Below are positions 12,772 through 57,252 of a stretch of DNA of 64,000 bases, one piece after another. The notes beneath the pieces were generated by a model, which was given only the letters and a program-made list of their open reading frames with translations, was not told the origin of the DNA and did no database searches. Made by a program: the position numbers and the translations under genes. This DNA is from Octopus vulgaris (taxonomy: Eukaryota): assembly GCA_951406725.2 (NCBI GenBank), contig OX597816.1, positions 16,864,001 through 16,928,000 on the forward strand, given 5' to 3'. Every line of letters starts with the position of its first letter. Position 1 is the first letter of the stretch.

Positions 12772-12857
12772 GTGGTACAATCATTTCATGCTACTTCATT
12801 TTATTAAACACTGTAAGTATTACATCAGTTTTAAAATGTCAAGCAATCTTCAGCCAC
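12772..12857 (-). ncRNA. Minimal type-I hammerhead ribozyme motif (left arm)
   Basis: Reverse complement: gtgg CTGAAGA [long stem II] GAAA tgattg TA ccac. Confidence 0.6.
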
Positions 12858-12921
12858 TTATAGAAATTTTCCAATCAAACAGAAAATTCTATCAATAAAA
12901 TTGATTGGAAAATTTCTATAA

Positions 12922-13007
12922 GTGGCTGAAGATTGCTCGACATTTTAAAACTGATGTAATACTTACAGTGTTTAATAAAATGAAGTAGCATGAAATGATT
13001 CTACCAC
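12922..13007 (+). ncRNA. Minimal type-I hammerhead ribozyme motif (right arm)
   Basis: gtgg CTGAAGA ttgct..cattttA..TAAAATG..agcat GAAA tgattc TA ccac; stem I gtgg/ccac; stem III appears decayed from ACGATCGT. Confidence 0.6.
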
Positions 13008-39325: not shown

Positions 39326-39601
39326 TTCTATATTTAAGAGATGAGGAATTATGTACATTATTTACATTATTTACAATTGACAGATATTCGTCCTCATCTT
39401 GTTTGTTGTTAGCATAACATTTTGGCTGATATACCCTCCAGCCTTCATCAGGTGTCTTGGAGAAATTTTGAACTCGGGTTCTCATTCCTAAAGCATTTTT
39501 TATGTTGTTATTATTATTATTATTCAGGTCACTGTCTGGAAGTGAACTCAGAATATTGGGGTTAGTAGCCTGCGCTCTTAACCACTACGCCATATGCCCG
39601 T
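39326..39601 (-). ncRNA. tRNA-like Pol III head (39527-39599), (AAT)n, decayed hammerhead (39412-39455); probable inverted PLE pseudo-LTR
   Basis: Reverse complement: GGGCATA TGGCGTAGTGGTTAAGAGCGC..GAGTTCACTTCC..; acac CTGATGA a-ggctg..cagcc AAAA tg TT (GAAACG to AAAATG is consistent with CpG decay). Confidence 0.65.
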
Positions 39602-41110
39602 GACAATTCCATCATAATACTTTCGGCCGACAAGGGAAATACTTCAGTGGTGATGAACAAGTCTGACTACTTGGAAAAACTGGCAAGTCTTATAAGTGAT
39701 GGTAGCTACAGCAAAGTAAAGAAAGACCCTACTTTGAAAACAGAGAGGAAGTTGTCACAGATCTTGACAAAGATCAAGGATCACTTTACACCAATGAAGT
39801 ACAGACAACTGACTCAACACTACAGTAAACTACCACACATGTATGGTCTTCCTAAGATTCACAAGGTTGGTATTCCATTAAGACCTATAGTGGGGTGTAG
39901 AGGTTCAGCATGTCATCCACCGACTGAGCTGCTTCCTTGTGGATATAATCAATCCATTAGCAGGAAAGTCAACATCGTGCGTGAAGAATTCCACCCACTT
40001 CACAGAATTCATCAAGGATGCTCCCATTGAATCCAACCAGATGGTGAGTCTAGATGTGATAAGTCGGTTCACCAAAGTCTCAACTGGTGAAGCACTAGTG
40101 GTGATTCAAGAAAAACTAGTGACAGACACCCATCTAAAAGAATGCACTAGTATACCAATAAGAAACTTGATGGAAATGTTGACCTTCTGTGTAGAAACTA
40201 CCTACTTCAGTATGGACACTGATATATATCGAGAAGAAGAGGGTTTAGCTATGGGTTCACCATTATCACAGATAATAGCCAATATATACATGGAATACTT
40301 TGAGAATTTGGCTTTAGGGTCAACACCACTAAAACCAAACACTATGGCTGCGATATGTTGATGACACCTTTATACTCAGGCCCCACCAGGAAGATGTCCA
40401 AGATGTCCAACACACACCAAGTATGGATTCAGGACATCCATACACTACAAGCCGACTTTCACTGGACGATACCTCAACTTCAACTCCCACCATCCGTACA
40501 GTATAAAGAGAGGGATTACTCAGTGCCTAAAACATCGAGCAATGAATATAAGTAGCAATTGTGATACCCACCACAAAGAAATGATTAAGCTCAGTAACAA
40601 TCTATTAAGCAACAACTACCCCAAAAGCATACTCTCCACTCCAATTATGAAGAAAAGAGAGGATGAAACTGAGAAACTGTTCACAGTCCATCTACCCTAT
40701 GTGAAAGGCCTCTCTGAAAAGATACAAAAGACTTCTTCAGCCCATATGACATCAGGACAGTATTCAAAAGTAATACAACACTTTGCAAATATCTCCTTCA
40801 AGTAAAACCACCAATAGAAGAGAATATGACCAGACCAAAGACTGCGTGTACTCCATCCCTTGCAGCTGTGGTAGGTTATACAAAAGCAAAACATGCCACC
40901 CCCTCAAAATAAGGGTACACTATCATCGCAAAACTGTGACATGGGGAGATATTGATAAACTGGGTATAACTGATCATGTATGGAAAAATGGAGACCACCT
41001 CCACCTGTGGGATGAAGTTAAAATAACAGACAGAGACCACTGCTGGAAAATACAAAAACTAAAAGAAGCAGCACATATGCTAAGACACAACAACCTCTTA
41101 AGCAGCATGT
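39602..41110 (+). pseudogene. Penelope-like element RT and GIY-YIG endonuclease, 5' truncated and frameshifted
   Basis: ADKGN, YGLPKIHK..PLRPIV, SLDV, GLAMGSPLS..IANIYM, WLRYVDD, GRYLNFNSHHP, VYSIPCSCG.LY...T. Confidence 0.93.
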
Positions 41111-46469: not shown

Positions 46470-47084
46470 AATAAATTTGGAAAGTTTTGGTCATTTTAGT
46501 CACTATTTTTGATTTTTGTCCGAGTATTTGTCCTTCAGACTGGAAAAAGGAGTTAAAAAAAGATTCCTTTATGATGAATATTTGTTCTGGAGGATGGTGT
46601 CAAAGGCCTCATTGTTTAGGGGGTTGTGCATGGATATGTATGGTAGGGCTTTTGGTTATAAATCTTTCTTTAGTTTGGGGTGTCTGAGTTCATGGATGTT
46701 GAGTTGTGAGGCACGTAGAAAGCCTACACCAATTAGTGATGGCAGGTAGTTCCTGTTGATGAGTGTATCCTTTAACTCAGGTAGCAGTGTGTCCCTGGTG
46801 CTTGTATCAAATACTATATTACAAATCCTCTCTGCCAGGTTGTAAGGGATATTCATTCTAGTGTGTCTGGGGTGGCAAGATTTGAATGCCAGATATTGCT
46901 TGGAGTCTGTGGGCTTATAGTAGATGTCTGTTTCTATTTTGCTGTTGGATTTCTTAATGAGGATGTCAAGGAATAGAAGTTGTTGGTGGCTATATTCCTT
47001 CATAAACTGAATTTTTATATCAAGTCCATTCAGAAGTGCTTGAAATTCAGCTTGAAATTCTTTAAGCCTCTCTATATTATTCAT
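46470..47084 (-). pseudogene. Second PLE family, RT C-terminal (thumb) remnant
   Basis: IQFMKE..LFLDILI..TDIYYKPTDSKQYL.F.SCHP.H...NIPYNLA.RIC. Confidence 0.85.
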
Positions 47085-49701: not shown

Positions 49702-50157
49702 CATCATCATCATCATCGTTTAATGTCCGTTTTTTGTGCTAGCACGGGTTGGACGGTTCAACCAGGATCTGGGAAGCCAGGGGCTGCACCAGGCTCCAGT
49801 CTGATCTGGCAGTGTTTCTACAGCTGGATGCCCTTCCTAACGCCAACCACTCCGCGAGTGTAGTGGGTGCTTTTTACATGCCACCGGCACAGGTGCCAGG
49901 GAAGTCTGGCATCGGCCACGATCAGTTGATGCTTTTAACGTGCCACCGGCACGGAAGCCAGTCAAGGCAGCACTGGCATCAGCCACGTTCGGATGGTGCT
50001 TTTTATGTGCCACCGGCACAGAAGCCAGTCGAGGCGGCGCTGGCATCAGCCACGTTCGGATGGTGCTTTTCATGTGCCACCGGAACAGAAGCCAGTCGAG
50101 GCGGCGCTGGCATCGGCCACGTTCGGATGGTGCTTTTTATGTGCCACCGGCACAGGT
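49702..50157 (-). mobile_element. Family B retroposon with tandem 67-bp units
   Basis: Units start at 49879, 49941, 50008, 50075 and 50142 (tgccaccgg). Confidence 0.92.
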
Positions 50158-51715: not shown

Positions 51716-53327
51716 TTTCATAGATAGCATTTGTATTTTCAAAACACAGTGGAAGCTTGTTTGTAATGCTGAAAGTCAACTGGAAACAAATAACCAGCTT
51801 GCTGCAGTGGCTTCATTTTCCCAAGATATTTTCACAAAAGAGCATGTCTAGACATAGCGTTATTTTGCATACTTTTTATGACAGGTGATTTTACTTAGCA
51901 TATTATATTCTATTGTACATCTTTCATGTTGATACACATTACTATTTTAAACATTTTCTTATGCCACATTGAGTTCTCTTACAGAAACATATACTACAGA
52001 AACAAATTTGTAGGAGTCTGCTTATTCATGCACACAAGTACATTTAGAAAATGCTAAAAATGGACTGTTTGTCTACACACTCACACACATTTATGTATAT
52101 GTATGTGGATATACTTTACATAGAATTTGTAGTGCTGGACACACCCTTCATCACATATCAATTGGAGATCACAATGATTTTCAACATCTTCTGTTTGTAG
52201 TGCCAAGTTATGAACAGGTTTTTTTAGCCCATGGTGTAGCATACCTTTCTCCTCATGGTATATGCAGCCAGCACATAAATCACACCAACCATACAGCAAC
52301 TATTACATTTTACTACTATCTGAGTATTTTTTTGTTTGCTTGCTTTCAGCTTTGTTCTTTCTCTTGTATATGTTTGCAATATTCCCCAAGGATCCAAGGG
52401 GAGGAAGCCTGAGGGGCACGTGCCCGCCCCCCTCAAGAAAAGAAGTGCAAGCTTCTAGATAATATTATTATGCCCTTTTCTTCTGGAATTGTATTTCTCT
52501 TCTGATCTTGTGCCTTCTCTTCGAAAAATTCCTGGGACCATGTCTCTCCCTAGTGAACCATTTTCTTCTTCTCTTCCCTGCTTATTAATCACTCCTTTGC
52601 TGTCCTCTCTAAGGACCAACTTCAACAAGTTAGGATCAAGTGCAAACAACTGCAACACTTCTCCTCTACTGAAAGCACTAAATTGCTAAAATTGTCATAC
52701 CTCACATGATCCTCTACAGATTCATAAATCAGATGATTTCCTTCTTGTTCCTACTCCATACTACCTCCACAAGATACTGTCAATTCAACATTCATAATTT
52801 TTTGTCAATCAAACTGTACAATGAGATCAGGACATAATATAATTACAACATAACCGGGAATACAGGCACTTTCTTCAAACACACCTGCATCATCCAGTCA
52901 TAAATACCATGTTGAAGCTTATGCAGCAGCTCTCCTTTGTTTACCCTCAGGTATTGTTCTTTCTTACTCTCCTTAAGGAATACAAGGTAAAACTAGTGCT
53001 CTCTCTGAAGATGGGCACACTGGGCAGTTGGCCAGAGGCAGCATAAAAGCAAGACATCCACACACACACATATAGATATATATACACACACGCATATAGA
53101 TATATATACACACACACATATAGATAAATATATACACACACACATAGATATATATATATATATATACATGCACACACACACAGAGGGATGGGCAAAAGTT
53201 AGTGTACAGTTGCTTAATATGAGGGAATGTTCTTTTCATTTCAATATTTCCCTTTGGAGATAAGAATATAATTAAGCAGACCTTTGTACACAGCAACTGT
53301 ATACCTACTTTTGCCCACTCTCCCCAC

Positions 53328-53361
<34 letters not shown>

Positions 53362-53523
53362 CATATATGTATGCATGCAGTATATAAAATCTTTCTGTTT
53401 CTTCTTTATAGGTAGTGTTGTGCAAGGTACTCTTCTTTCCACAACACCAAAGCCATTAGTTCACAGTGACACTTGTAAGCAAATGTCTTTTTTCTTTCTC
53501 TCTGTGGACAGTAAAAAAATGGA

Positions 53524-53570
53524 TCTACCTGACCGGTTTCGAATCTTGTTTGACTCTCATCAGAGATAGA
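53524..53570 (-). ncRNA. Minimal type-I hammerhead ribozyme, intact core
   Basis: Reverse complement: tctatct CTGATGA gagtc-aaacaa-gattc GAAA ccgg TC aggtaga; 7-bp stem I, 5-bp stem II, palindromic ACCGGT, GUC cleavage site. Confidence 0.88.
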
Positions 53571-53983
53571 ATACCATTTGATCTATCCATGGAGAGAAAT
53601 GTAGCTTATAGCTATAAATGGTTACTAAATGTAGTTAATTAAATGAACTGATAAGTTTGATTTGCATAAATAAGTGCTTCATCTGTGATTTATCCAAATC
53701 CATTAGAACTTTTTTGCACTAAACAGCATTTTCTCTCCACAATATCTGTTGTATTGTACAGTATATACAATGCTTCCCAACACATTGGAGTGATTGCTGT
53801 ATTGTAACAATTGCAAAGAAATGTCTTTTCCTTTCTCTCCGTTGACAGAAAAAATGGATCTACCTGACCGGTTTCAAATGAATGTAAATCATATATATTT
53901 ATGCTTATGCAAATATGTAAACGAAGGTATTTTACAGGTATATATACATACCTTATGGCATGTTCATACACAAAAGTCATGCA

Positions 53984-55148: not shown

Positions 55149-55944
55149 AATAATAATAATAATAATAATAATAATTGTGTACAGTGCTCAGGTGCACTAC
55201 AACTCATCTAAAGTGTATATATAATCAGGTGTAGTTTCGGCGGATTTCGGAAAGCATGAGGGCCTTAAAGGATGCAGTGTCATGGCAGTCAACAACTGAC
55301 GCAGGCAGTTTATTCCATGCTTCAGCAACTCTGAGCGTGAAAAAATGTTTCCGAAAGTCATGGGAGCTGTGTTGTTTTCTGACTTTGTAGGCATGTCCAC
55401 GTGTGTTAGACACATGGAGATCAAAAAGGTGTTCAGTGTTGTTGTTGGTGAGGTGGTTGATAACCTTGTGGGTGTTTACCAAGTCCGTCGCCAGACGCCG
55501 GAGCTTCAGTGAATCCATGCCCAGGGAAACAAGGCACTCAGAATATGGTAGGTGTCTGATGGAGGGTATGCGTTTGGTTGCACGTCTCTGGACAGATTCC
55601 AGGAGGTCAATGTTCTGAGCAAGATAGGGATTCCAAACTGATGATGCGAATTCCAAGTGTGGTCGTACCATAGCTGTATACAGTTTTAAATAGATGGCTG
55701 GAGAGCGGCTAACAAAAGTCTTGCTGAGTGATGCCAAGACACCCTCGGCCTTCTTGACAATTTTAGAGATATGCTTTGTCCAACGCAAATCACTGCTGAC
55801 AGTGATGCCTAGGTCACGCTCGCAAGAGGATTTCTTGATATCAGTGTTGTGGAGGGAGTATGTGGACGCAGGGTTTTTTCTCCCAAAATGCATGGTGGTA
55901 CACTTGTCCACAGCCAGTTTCAGTTGCCAGTCTGTGATCCACAA
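55149..55944 (-). mobile_element. CR1-clade LINE 3' end with uninterrupted ORF2 C-terminus, 3' stem-loop and (ATT)n tail
   Basis: WQLKL..DKC, ERDLGI, LY..MVRPHLEF.SSVWNP, LESVQRRATK, FF..RV...WN.LP; agtgc-acctga-gcact hairpin. Confidence 0.93.
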
Positions 55945-56854: not shown

Positions 56855-57252
56855 GCCAGTGCCCCTTGACTGGCTCTCATCCTGGTGGCATGTAAAATGC
56901 ATCTTCTGAACATGATCGATGCCAGTGCCTCCTGACTGGCTCCCATGCCGGTGGCACATAAAAGGCACTATCCGAATGTGATTGATGCAGGGCCACCTGA
57001 CTGGCTCCCATGTCAGTGGCATGTAAAAAGCACTATCTGAATGTGATCAATGCCAGGCCCATCTGACTGGCACATGAGCCGGTAGCACATGAAAAGCACC
57101 TCCTACACTCTCGGAGTGGTTGGCATTAGGAAGGGCATCCAGCTGTAGAAACATTGCCAGATCAGATTGAAGCCTAGTGCAGCTGCTAGCTTTCCAGACC
57201 TCAGTCAAACCGTCCAACCCCTACCAGCATGGAAAGCGGATGATGATGATGA
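56855..57252 (+). mobile_element. Family B retroposon with four diverged units
   Basis: Repeated ctgactggc..gtggca..aaaagcac, core and tail. Confidence 0.88.

What the first reader, a model, noticed from the sequence alone, without database searches (positions are those of the whole stretch)
53375..53880. Best-preserved hammerhead lies in a 335-nt partial tandem (retrozyme-like)
The intact ribozyme at 53524-53570(-) is preceded on the minus strand by a second copy of its 3' half and downstream flank (53817-53878 matches 53481-53543). The two GUC sites are 335 nt apart, the region is ORF-free, and it lies between microsatellites. Established: animal non-LTR retrozymes are tandem monomers of a few hundred nt released by dimeric minimal hammerheads and circularised. 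Inference: a retrozyme or tandem pseudo-LTR whose two ACCGGT palindromes could pair to form the double hammerhead.
Basis: partly seen in the sequence, partly recalled or inferred. Interest (0 to 1): 0.74.

Follow-up and report, generated by a model that had tools for sequence, protein, structure and literature searches.

The report
Old retrozyme copy, unusually well conserved
This is an old, one-and-a-half-unit copy of a small protein-less repeat that carries a predicted self-cutting RNA; the kind is known, but this copy alone keeps the motif intact and differs two to four times less than its flanks between related animals, so the host may have put it to use.

Summary
A complete type I hammerhead lies on the minus strand (53517-53579, predicted cut after 53531), and a half copy lies 335 nt upstream.

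It is a 1.5-unit insertion of an old, dispersed ~335-nt non-coding repeat family. The unit closes at 324-341 nt in independent copies. 10 of 32 loci are back-to-back inverted pairs and 6 are tandems, a Penelope-type footprint, so this is a non-LTR retrozyme.

The double-hammerhead idea is half right. The upstream copy has no catalytic core, so the two-copy fold would cut only at 53866 and would not release a 335-nt circle.

This copy is as old as its paralogs (79% to family majority). Yet it alone keeps all core and stem positions (0 of 31 paralogs do) and folds as a rod (z -4 to -5). It differs from orthologous contigs by 2-3%, against 6-8% in flanks. That suggests constraint, but a test of selection on base pairs was inconclusive, and neither transcription nor cleavage was shown.

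The scan had already noted young 360- and 490-nt retrozymes elsewhere in this genome. Verdict: new member of a known kind, with a possible domestication lead.

The parts
53376..53879 (-). Whole insertion, about 1.5 units of the ~335-nt family
   Evidence: Paralog-only profile matches 53879-53715 and 53744-53386; pairwise alignment to about 53376
53850..53879 (-). 5'-truncated half hammerhead: GAAA, ACCGGU palindrome, C17 (53866) and 3' strand of stem I; no catalytic core
   Evidence: 30 of 31 nt identical to the complete copy (family D15); pairing check
53531..53865 (-). 335-nt cut-to-cut unit, 33% GC, predicted rod-like circle
   Evidence: circfold -79.1 kcal/mol, z -5.0 on 100 shuffles and -4.5 on 30; unit closure in independent copies
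53517..53579 (-). Complete type I hammerhead; helix III is one A-U pair under a palindromic CCGG loop; predicted cut after 53531 only with a second intact core
53376..53516 (-). Tail of the second copy, ending near the family's common 3' end (+145 to +155 from C17)
53412..53474 (+). Cassette-exon-like 63 nt (AG acceptor, GTAAGC donor, one open frame); unproven rival source of constraint
   Evidence: no protein match
53327..53375 (.). CA/TA microsatellite at the 3' end of the insertion
   Evidence: Sequence

Best explanation
This is an old 1.5-unit insertion of a dispersed ~335-nt non-coding repeat with a type I hammerhead motif, likely pasted by a Penelope-like reverse transcriptase, likely no longer mobile, and likely kept under purifying selection; if transcribed on the minus strand it would cut once, at 53866, and would not release a circle. 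Shown: the motif, the family, its unit length, its tandem and inverted copies, its age, and the low divergence between samples. Inferred origin: a Penelope enzyme began reverse transcription at the family's usual 3' site (about +150 to +160), ran 1.5 times through a circle or multimer that was uncut at the first GUC, and stopped inside stem II. Inferred present behaviour: helix III is too weak for the lone ribozyme. As the second core is transcribed, it pairs with the upstream palindrome and stem I strand and cuts the upstream site. After about 60-80 more nucleotides, a rod that pairs in cis wins at equilibrium. I put the family identity at about 0.9, real constraint at about 0.55-0.6, and the ribozyme or RNA fold as the thing selected at about 0.22.
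For: FAMILY: 27 other matches at 70-89% identity. A downstream profile built without window rows hits upstream regions of the window, L003 (E 2e-7) and L007 (E 1e-4). 12 of 15 upstream-versus-downstream pairs give offsets of 324-341 nt. FOOTPRINT: 10 of 32 loci are divergent inverted pairs, 6 are tandems and 0 are convergent; 11 of 58 pieces run to +151..+154 (profile limit +155), mostly into AT-rich TAATT-like letters. This matches the partial tandems, inverted 5'-truncated copies and tails described for Penelope-like elements (10.1101/2021.04.23.441226, passages). GIY-YIG Penelope-like elements are abundant in the genome (17,674 candidates, 150 scored). AGE: 79% to the paralog majority, against a paralog mean of 72% (range 60-84%, 20 rows); the two tails at this locus are only 70% alike. 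INTEGRITY: 0 of 31 paralogs keep core, palindrome, 7/7 stem I and 5/5 stem II. The circle folds at z -4.0 to -5.0, against -3.0 to +0.8 for 14 paralogs and -2.8 to +1.9 for 20 background windows. 28 of 29 nt around the cut site match between the two copies (P 4e-4 at 70%). CONSTRAINT: run X14 differs at 11 of 531 nt (2.1%) against 327 of 4156 (7.9%) in 7 flank pieces, p 6e-8; run X17 at 18 of 593 (3.0%) against 242 of 4031 (6.0%) in 6 pieces, p 0.002. Low-depth contigs X1 and X5 differ at 2 of 557 nt against 68 of 3314 (p 0.003).
Against: The direct test of selection on base pairs was inconclusive: 6 of 46 pairs broken (13%) against 8-55% in 27 paralog pieces, with three pieces lower; substitutions were 14/92 at paired and 28/137 at unpaired sites; the reference structure covered only 231 nt. 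Identity of the ribozyme part to the majority (67 of 77) is close to that of the best paralogs. X14 and X17 share many differences and are not independent; only 7 and 6 flank pieces were listed, and one 136-nt X17 piece is at 3.7%. Constraint from the time of insertion would predict a copy much closer to the majority than 79%. Paralogs were found with this copy as the query, and their monomers were shorter, which weakens their fold scores. The rod scores equally on the opposite strand (z -4.2). The two-copy fold is minor in full context. No family copy was linked to a Penelope ORF (1 of 31 loci has a 36-codon hit). In 10.64898/2026.07.22.740005, 8 of 9 predicted retrozyme dimers did not cleave in vitro.
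Confidence: 0.5

Rival explanations
1. Neutral fossil. It is the same old retrozyme copy, but nothing selects on it. It is the best-preserved draw among a few dozen decayed copies, and the low divergence reflects local mutation rate or shared ancestry.
For: The pair-retention test did not single it out. 4 of 31 paralogs keep core, palindrome and 6-7 of 7 stem I pairs. The two comparison runs are not independent. No host gene was found within 100 kb either side. The first stage picked it because it was intact.
Against: All 7 X14 flank pieces are at 6.1-10.2%, including pieces within about 350 nt on both sides, at similar GC (22-43% against 33%) and mostly single-copy depth. Differences resume just outside the 5' end (5 listed in 53889-53926 for X17). 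The 154 nt around the ribozyme carry at most 2 (X17) and at most 5 (X14) differences (P 0.004 and 0.016).
Confidence: 0.3
2. An active source of 335-nt circular RNA, released by a double hammerhead.
For: The unit has the size, GC content and rod fold of retrozyme circles. Both cut sites and both palindromes are intact. A partner transcript in trans, or slow monomer cleavage (6% in 1 h for the similarly built axolotl HHR_Amex1, PMC7229834), could cut 53531.
Against: The upstream copy has no core. No young copies exist at the sensitivity used: 1 exact and 3 one-mismatch matches to the family ribozyme pattern, and the best other match is 89% over 75 nt.
Confidence: 0.08
3. The constraint is real but unrelated to the ribozyme: the tail of copy 2 was exonised in antisense as a 63-nt cassette (53412-53474, plus strand). 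A DNA-level regulatory element is the untested alternative of this kind and is counted inside the best explanation.
For: The acceptor AG is absent at that position from 13 of 13 paralogs. GTAAG at the donor is present in only 2 of 23. The length is a multiple of three with one open frame. It is 1 of 9 such candidates in 64 kb.
Against: No protein match (3 candidates, none at E<=10; weak test). No host-gene Pfam hit among 147 candidate frames in 264 kb. Contigs X6 and X1 run unspliced across the donor. The low divergence covers about 500 nt, not just 63.
Confidence: 0.07
4. A plain pseudo-LTR end of an autonomous Penelope-like element, duplicated by chance at 335 nt.
For: Penelope pLTRs carry type I hammerheads with palindromic helix III and form partial tandems (PMC4209133). 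Retrozymes are proposed to derive from pLTRs.
Against: Downstream sequence wraps into upstream sequence at 324-341 nt in copies independent of the window. No coding sequence follows or precedes the unit in 30 of 31 loci. The family profile has no hit in 20 Penelope loci, whose own ribozyme is a different minimal form.
Confidence: 0.05

Closest known systems
Metazoan non-LTR retrozymes (Cervera and de la Pena 2020, PMC7229834; parts 2-3 of 6 and passages read): mussel 350-390 bp, axolotl Rtz331 with HHR_Amex1, newt satellite 2 (~330 bp)
   Same: Type I hammerhead in a non-coding unit of ~335 nt, GC under 45%, highly self-paired predicted circle; helix III of one pair under a palindromic tetraloop, as in HHR_Amex1.
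   Different: No multi-unit array with a complete ribozyme in each unit; the family is old and decayed; only 1.5 units and one core here; expression and circles not shown.
Penelope-like element pLTRs and their insertion footprint (PMC4209133, part 1 of 4; 10.1101/2021.04.23.441226 and PMC11167929, passages; 10.64898/2026.07.22.740005, parts 1-3 of 5)
   Same: 5' truncation, partial tandems, back-to-back inverted copies, a shared 3' end in AT-rich or microsatellite DNA, a template uncut at the ribozyme.
   Different: No RT or GIY-YIG ORF; canonical-length helix I (7+6 bp) instead of the short helix I of minimal pLTR ribozymes; a closed unit of fixed length.
Domesticated single-copy hammerheads of vertebrates (3'-UTR and intronic ribozymes of amniotes; seen only as passages in PMC7761336 and PMC7229834; the primary paper PMC2933863 was not held)
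   Same: A lone ribozyme, nearest to Rfam HH9, more conserved than its surroundings.
   Different: Invertebrate-type, dimer-dependent helix III; conservation is seen only over 6-8% neutral divergence; no host gene found; clear retrozyme ancestry.
Young 360-nt and 485-495-nt retrozyme families noted earlier by this scan in the same genome (unchecked notes)
   Same: Non-coding hammerhead unit with a Penelope-type tandem and inverted footprint.
   Different: Those are described as young with hundreds of copies. This family is about 20-30% decayed and had no look-alike in the notes.

Membership tests
Type I hammerhead ribozyme | Core CUGANGA, GAAA and NUH in type I order, with stems I and II | tested here: met
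Type I hammerhead ribozyme | Stable helix III as a monomer | tested here: not met
   One A-U pair under CCGG; six pairs only between two copies
Type I hammerhead ribozyme | Self-cleavage | not testable with these tools
   Needs in vitro transcription
Non-LTR retrozyme | Non-coding unit of 150-450 nt with a type I ribozyme, GC under 50% | tested here: met
   335 nt, 33% GC; closure in independent copies; no Pfam hit
Non-LTR retrozyme | Multicopy, with tandem copies | tested here: met
   32 loci mapped, 6 tandem; counts are lower bounds
Non-LTR retrozyme | Highly self-paired predicted circle | tested here: met
   z -4.0 to -5.0 here; -3.4 for a 231-nt majority-letter unit
Active non-LTR retrozyme (Li et al. 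definition) | Two consecutive units, each with a complete ribozyme | tested here: not met
   Upstream copy lacks the core; definition
Non-LTR retrozyme | Linear and circular monomer RNA in tissues | not testable with these tools
   Only contigs were available
Autonomous Penelope-like element | RT plus GIY-YIG ORF flanked by the repeat | tested here: not met
   tblastn with 7 genome Penelope frames: 1 short hit in 31 family loci; the window's hits are 6-14 kb away
Penelope-mobilised insertion | Partial tandems, inverted 5'-truncated copies, shared 3' end | tested here: met
   10 of 32 inverted, 6 of 32 tandem; 3' ends cluster at +120..+154. The window copy itself has no detectable inverted arm
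Domesticated (host-selected) ribozyme | Lower divergence than flanks at the orthologous site | tested here: met
   two non-independent runs
Domesticated (host-selected) ribozyme | Substitutions spare or compensate base pairs | tested here: inconclusive
Domesticated (host-selected) ribozyme | Lies in sense within a host transcript | tested here: inconclusive
   No host gene found in 264 kb by a crude search; strand cannot be read from contigs

The most novel reading that the evidence does not exclude
A domesticated retrozyme: an extinct family's copy kept by the host as a one-cut, co-transcriptional RNA switch. One catalytic core uses a truncated upstream copy as its substrate during a window of about 60 nt of transcription, after which a rod fold shuts it off. 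No invertebrate case of a host-selected retrozyme turned up in the paper searches made.
Probability: 0.2. Interest if true: 0.75.

Novelty: new member of a known kind. Interest (0 to 1): 0.42.

Why it matters
As a family it extends non-LTR retrozymes back in time in this genome. An extinct 335-nt family, 20-30% decayed, already shows the Penelope insertion footprint, which supports the proposed but largely inferred Penelope route. The locus matters more if the constraint is real. Conserved vertebrate hammerheads are thought to be domesticated from mobile elements, but their source families are gone. Here the source family is still readable, the selection looks recent, and the 1.5-unit build gives a sharp bench prediction: one cut, upstream, during transcription only.

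Tried and rejected
EXPRESSION: no RNA holder is listed on record. Runs guessed to be RNA (X1, X5, X6) have contigs of depth 3.7-4.3 on the element, but X1 and X5 cover flanks at the same depth, so this is no evidence either way. X1 and X6 contigs both stop at 53618, but X5 runs across it; I did not use this.

YOUNG COPIES: DNA searches and patterns found none. The search skips very common words, so counts are lower bounds. 4 of 32 hits are chance matches antisense in a LINE ORF. A DNA alignment could not be used as a genome query.

FOLDING: the two-copy fold as minimum-energy structure depended on ending the transcript at 53505, and was rejected for full context. The stem II indices were off by one and were corrected.

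COVARIATION: ACUAGU palindromes in some paralogs are not counted as covariation, because CpG decay on both strands gives the same letters. The pair-retention test was inconclusive.

HOST GENE: none found; 125 of 201 ranked frames plus 22 others were scanned.

ROWS DROPPED from divergence counts: X17 55667-55781 (14/115, likely a repeat; keeping it would raise flank divergence), X14 53192-53313 (7/122, listed only), and X1 pieces 55183-55917 (repeat depth). Only the longest contig pieces are listed by the tool.

EARLIER NOTES: the young CCGAUGA family of note e1-8666756 was not recovered by my pattern (34 mixed hits against 4 control).

PAPERS: PMC2933863 and PMC5785218 were not held and nothing was read from them. 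No supplements were read; those of PMC7229834 (invertebrate retrozyme lists) may include this family or organism.

Full report
OBSERVATION. The minus strand holds a complete type I hammerhead at 53517-53579. It has a 6-bp stem I extension, 7-bp stem I, CUGAUGA, 5-bp stem II closed by G-C, GAAA, ACCGGU and C17 at 53531. Rfam HH9 matches below its gathering score (26 against 52 bits). A strict descriptor gives 1 hit in the window and 0 in the reversed control. A second copy, 53879-53804, is 85% identical to 53544-53466, and its C17 is at 53866, 335 nt upstream. It begins at the 3' strand of stem II and lacks the core. Homology between the copies fades but continues to about 53376. No protein is supported.

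THE FAMILY. The genome (2.8 Gb; earlier notes call it a cephalopod, not tested here) has 27 other matches at 70-89%, and a few more with a paralog as the query. The 335-nt spacing is a property of the family. A downstream profile built from 18 paralogs, without window rows, hits the upstream regions of the window (E 1e-15), L003 (2e-7) and L007 (1e-4). In the control of 33 more distant regions, the only strong hit was a further family copy in L010. In 12 of 15 pairwise tests the offset was 324-341 nt. Among 32 loci, 10 are back-to-back inverted pairs, 6 are tandems and none is convergent; 3' ends cluster at +120 to +154 from C17 and often run into AT-rich or microsatellite DNA. This is the footprint described for Penelope-like elements (10.1101/2021.04.23.441226, passages; PMC11167929, passages). 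GIY-YIG Penelope-like elements are abundant here. Their own ribozyme is a different minimal form, the family profile does not hit 20 of their loci, and only 1 of 31 family loci has a short coding hit. The unit is therefore a non-autonomous retrozyme, not the end of a coding element. The Penelope route is inferred, as in PMC7229834 (passages) and 10.64898/2026.07.22.740005 (parts 1-3 of 5).

AGE AND INTEGRITY. No young copy was found: the family ribozyme pattern has 1 exact match (this one) and 3 with one mismatch. The window copy is 79% identical to the paralog majority (paralog mean 72%; 2 of 20 are at or above 79%), and its two tails are 70% alike, so it belongs to the same old wave. Yet 0 of 31 paralogs keep core, palindrome and all stem I and II pairs, though 4 come close. 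The 335-nt circle folds at z -5.0 and -4.5, and the other permutation at -4.0. 14 paralogs score -3.0 to +0.8 and 20 background windows -2.8 to +1.9. Around the cut site the two copies match at 28 of 29 nt (P 4e-4 at 70%). The one mismatch is at the last base of stem II, which has no partner in the half copy (sequence).

HOW IT WOULD CUT. Helix III is one A-U pair under a CCGG loop, as in axolotl HHR_Amex1, which cleaves poorly alone and well as a dimer (PMC7229834, part 3). In a double hammerhead each core cuts the other copy's site; this follows from the geometry shown in PMC4209133 (part 1). Here only the downstream core exists, so the six-pair palindrome helix builds one ribozyme, which would cut 53866. 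Site 53531 would need a partner in trans or slow monomer cleavage, so a 335-nt circle is not the expected product. The two-copy fold has probability 0.89-1.0 while the 3' end lies between 53531 and 53485, 0.56 at 53470 and 0-0.06 beyond 53450. In three full contexts it is 1-7%. These are equilibrium predictions on prefixes, not kinetics. The 13 nt kept upstream of the first GUC show that the template was uncut there, in line with uncleaved RNA being the main Penelope substrate in vitro (PMC11167929).

CONSTRAINT. Orthologous contigs that include the 5' junction exist in other runs. X14 differs at 11 of 531 nt (2.1%) against 327 of 4156 (7.9%; seven pieces, 6.1-10.2%), p 6e-8. X17 differs at 18 of 593 (3.0%, at least 5 of them outside the element) against 242 of 4031 (6.0%; six pieces, 3.7-6.9%), p 0.002. 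GC is similar, and depth is single-copy in all but one flank piece. No listed difference falls in 53486-53639; up to 2 (X17) and 5 (X14) are unlisted. Low-depth contigs of X1 and X5 show the same trend (2 of 557 against 68 of 3314). Against this: the runs are not independent, few pieces are listed, and the same contrast could not be measured at paralogs. The pair-retention test did not single the copy out (6 of 46 pairs broken; three paralog pieces did better). A copy constrained since insertion should also lie closer to the majority than it does, so any selection began late or acts on part of it.

RIVALS. A neutral, lucky fossil remains plausible (0.3). An antisense 63-nt cassette at 53412-53474 has derived splice signals. 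It has no protein match, no host gene was found within 100 kb either side, and contigs cross it unspliced. An active circle source and a plain pLTR end are unlikely for the reasons above. Transcription was neither shown nor excluded.

NOVELTY. Retrozymes of this size are known from mussel and axolotl, and the scan had noted several young families in this genome (unchecked notes). This family had no look-alike in the notes. Paper searches for cephalopod or domesticated invertebrate retrozymes returned nothing relevant in their listings; supplements were not read. Verdict: new member of a known kind, interest 0.42. There is a 0.2 chance of a domesticated one-cut ribozyme, which would deserve 0.75.

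Noticed in passing
window 53185-53325: A ~140-nt element with imperfect terminal inverted repeats, MITE-like (a Tc1/mariner resemblance is recalled, not tested), between microsatellites next to the retrozyme; many other contigs match its end.
   Followed up: partly
window 39575-40712 (+) and 46698-47063 (-): Decayed remnants matching Penelope-like open frames of this genome (21-35% identity); no intact ribozyme found beside them.
   Followed up: partly
L029, L030, L033, L035, L040, L041, L045, L047, L053, L054, L055, L058: A second old hammerhead family with the same ACCGGU palindrome, a longer stem II and 300-500 nt of shared sequence, with inverted copies in some loci.
   Followed up: partly
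L096-L112: A young GIY-YIG Penelope-like family carrying a minimal hammerhead with a UUGAAGA variant core and an ACGU palindrome, in 15 of 20 loci.
   Followed up: no
window 53412-53474 (+): Cassette-exon-like segment with derived acceptor and donor inside the antisense tail.
   Followed up: partly
L031, L034, L036, L037: Four hammerhead-pattern hits lie antisense in a LINE ORF and are false positives.
   Followed up: yes
G000, pattern: 34 CCGAUGA-core hammerhead-like matches against 4 control matches, from several unrelated families.
   Followed up: no
family paralogs: The palindrome decays to ACCAGT far more often than to ACTGGT; this may be seed bias or a subfamily effect.
   Followed up: no
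window 12834-12949: A long near-perfect hairpin, probably a MITE; it gives sub-threshold microRNA hits.
   Followed up: no
window 49906-50155 and 56855-57099: Tandem arrays of a 66-67-nt unit from a very high-copy repeat, in opposite orientations.
   Followed up: no
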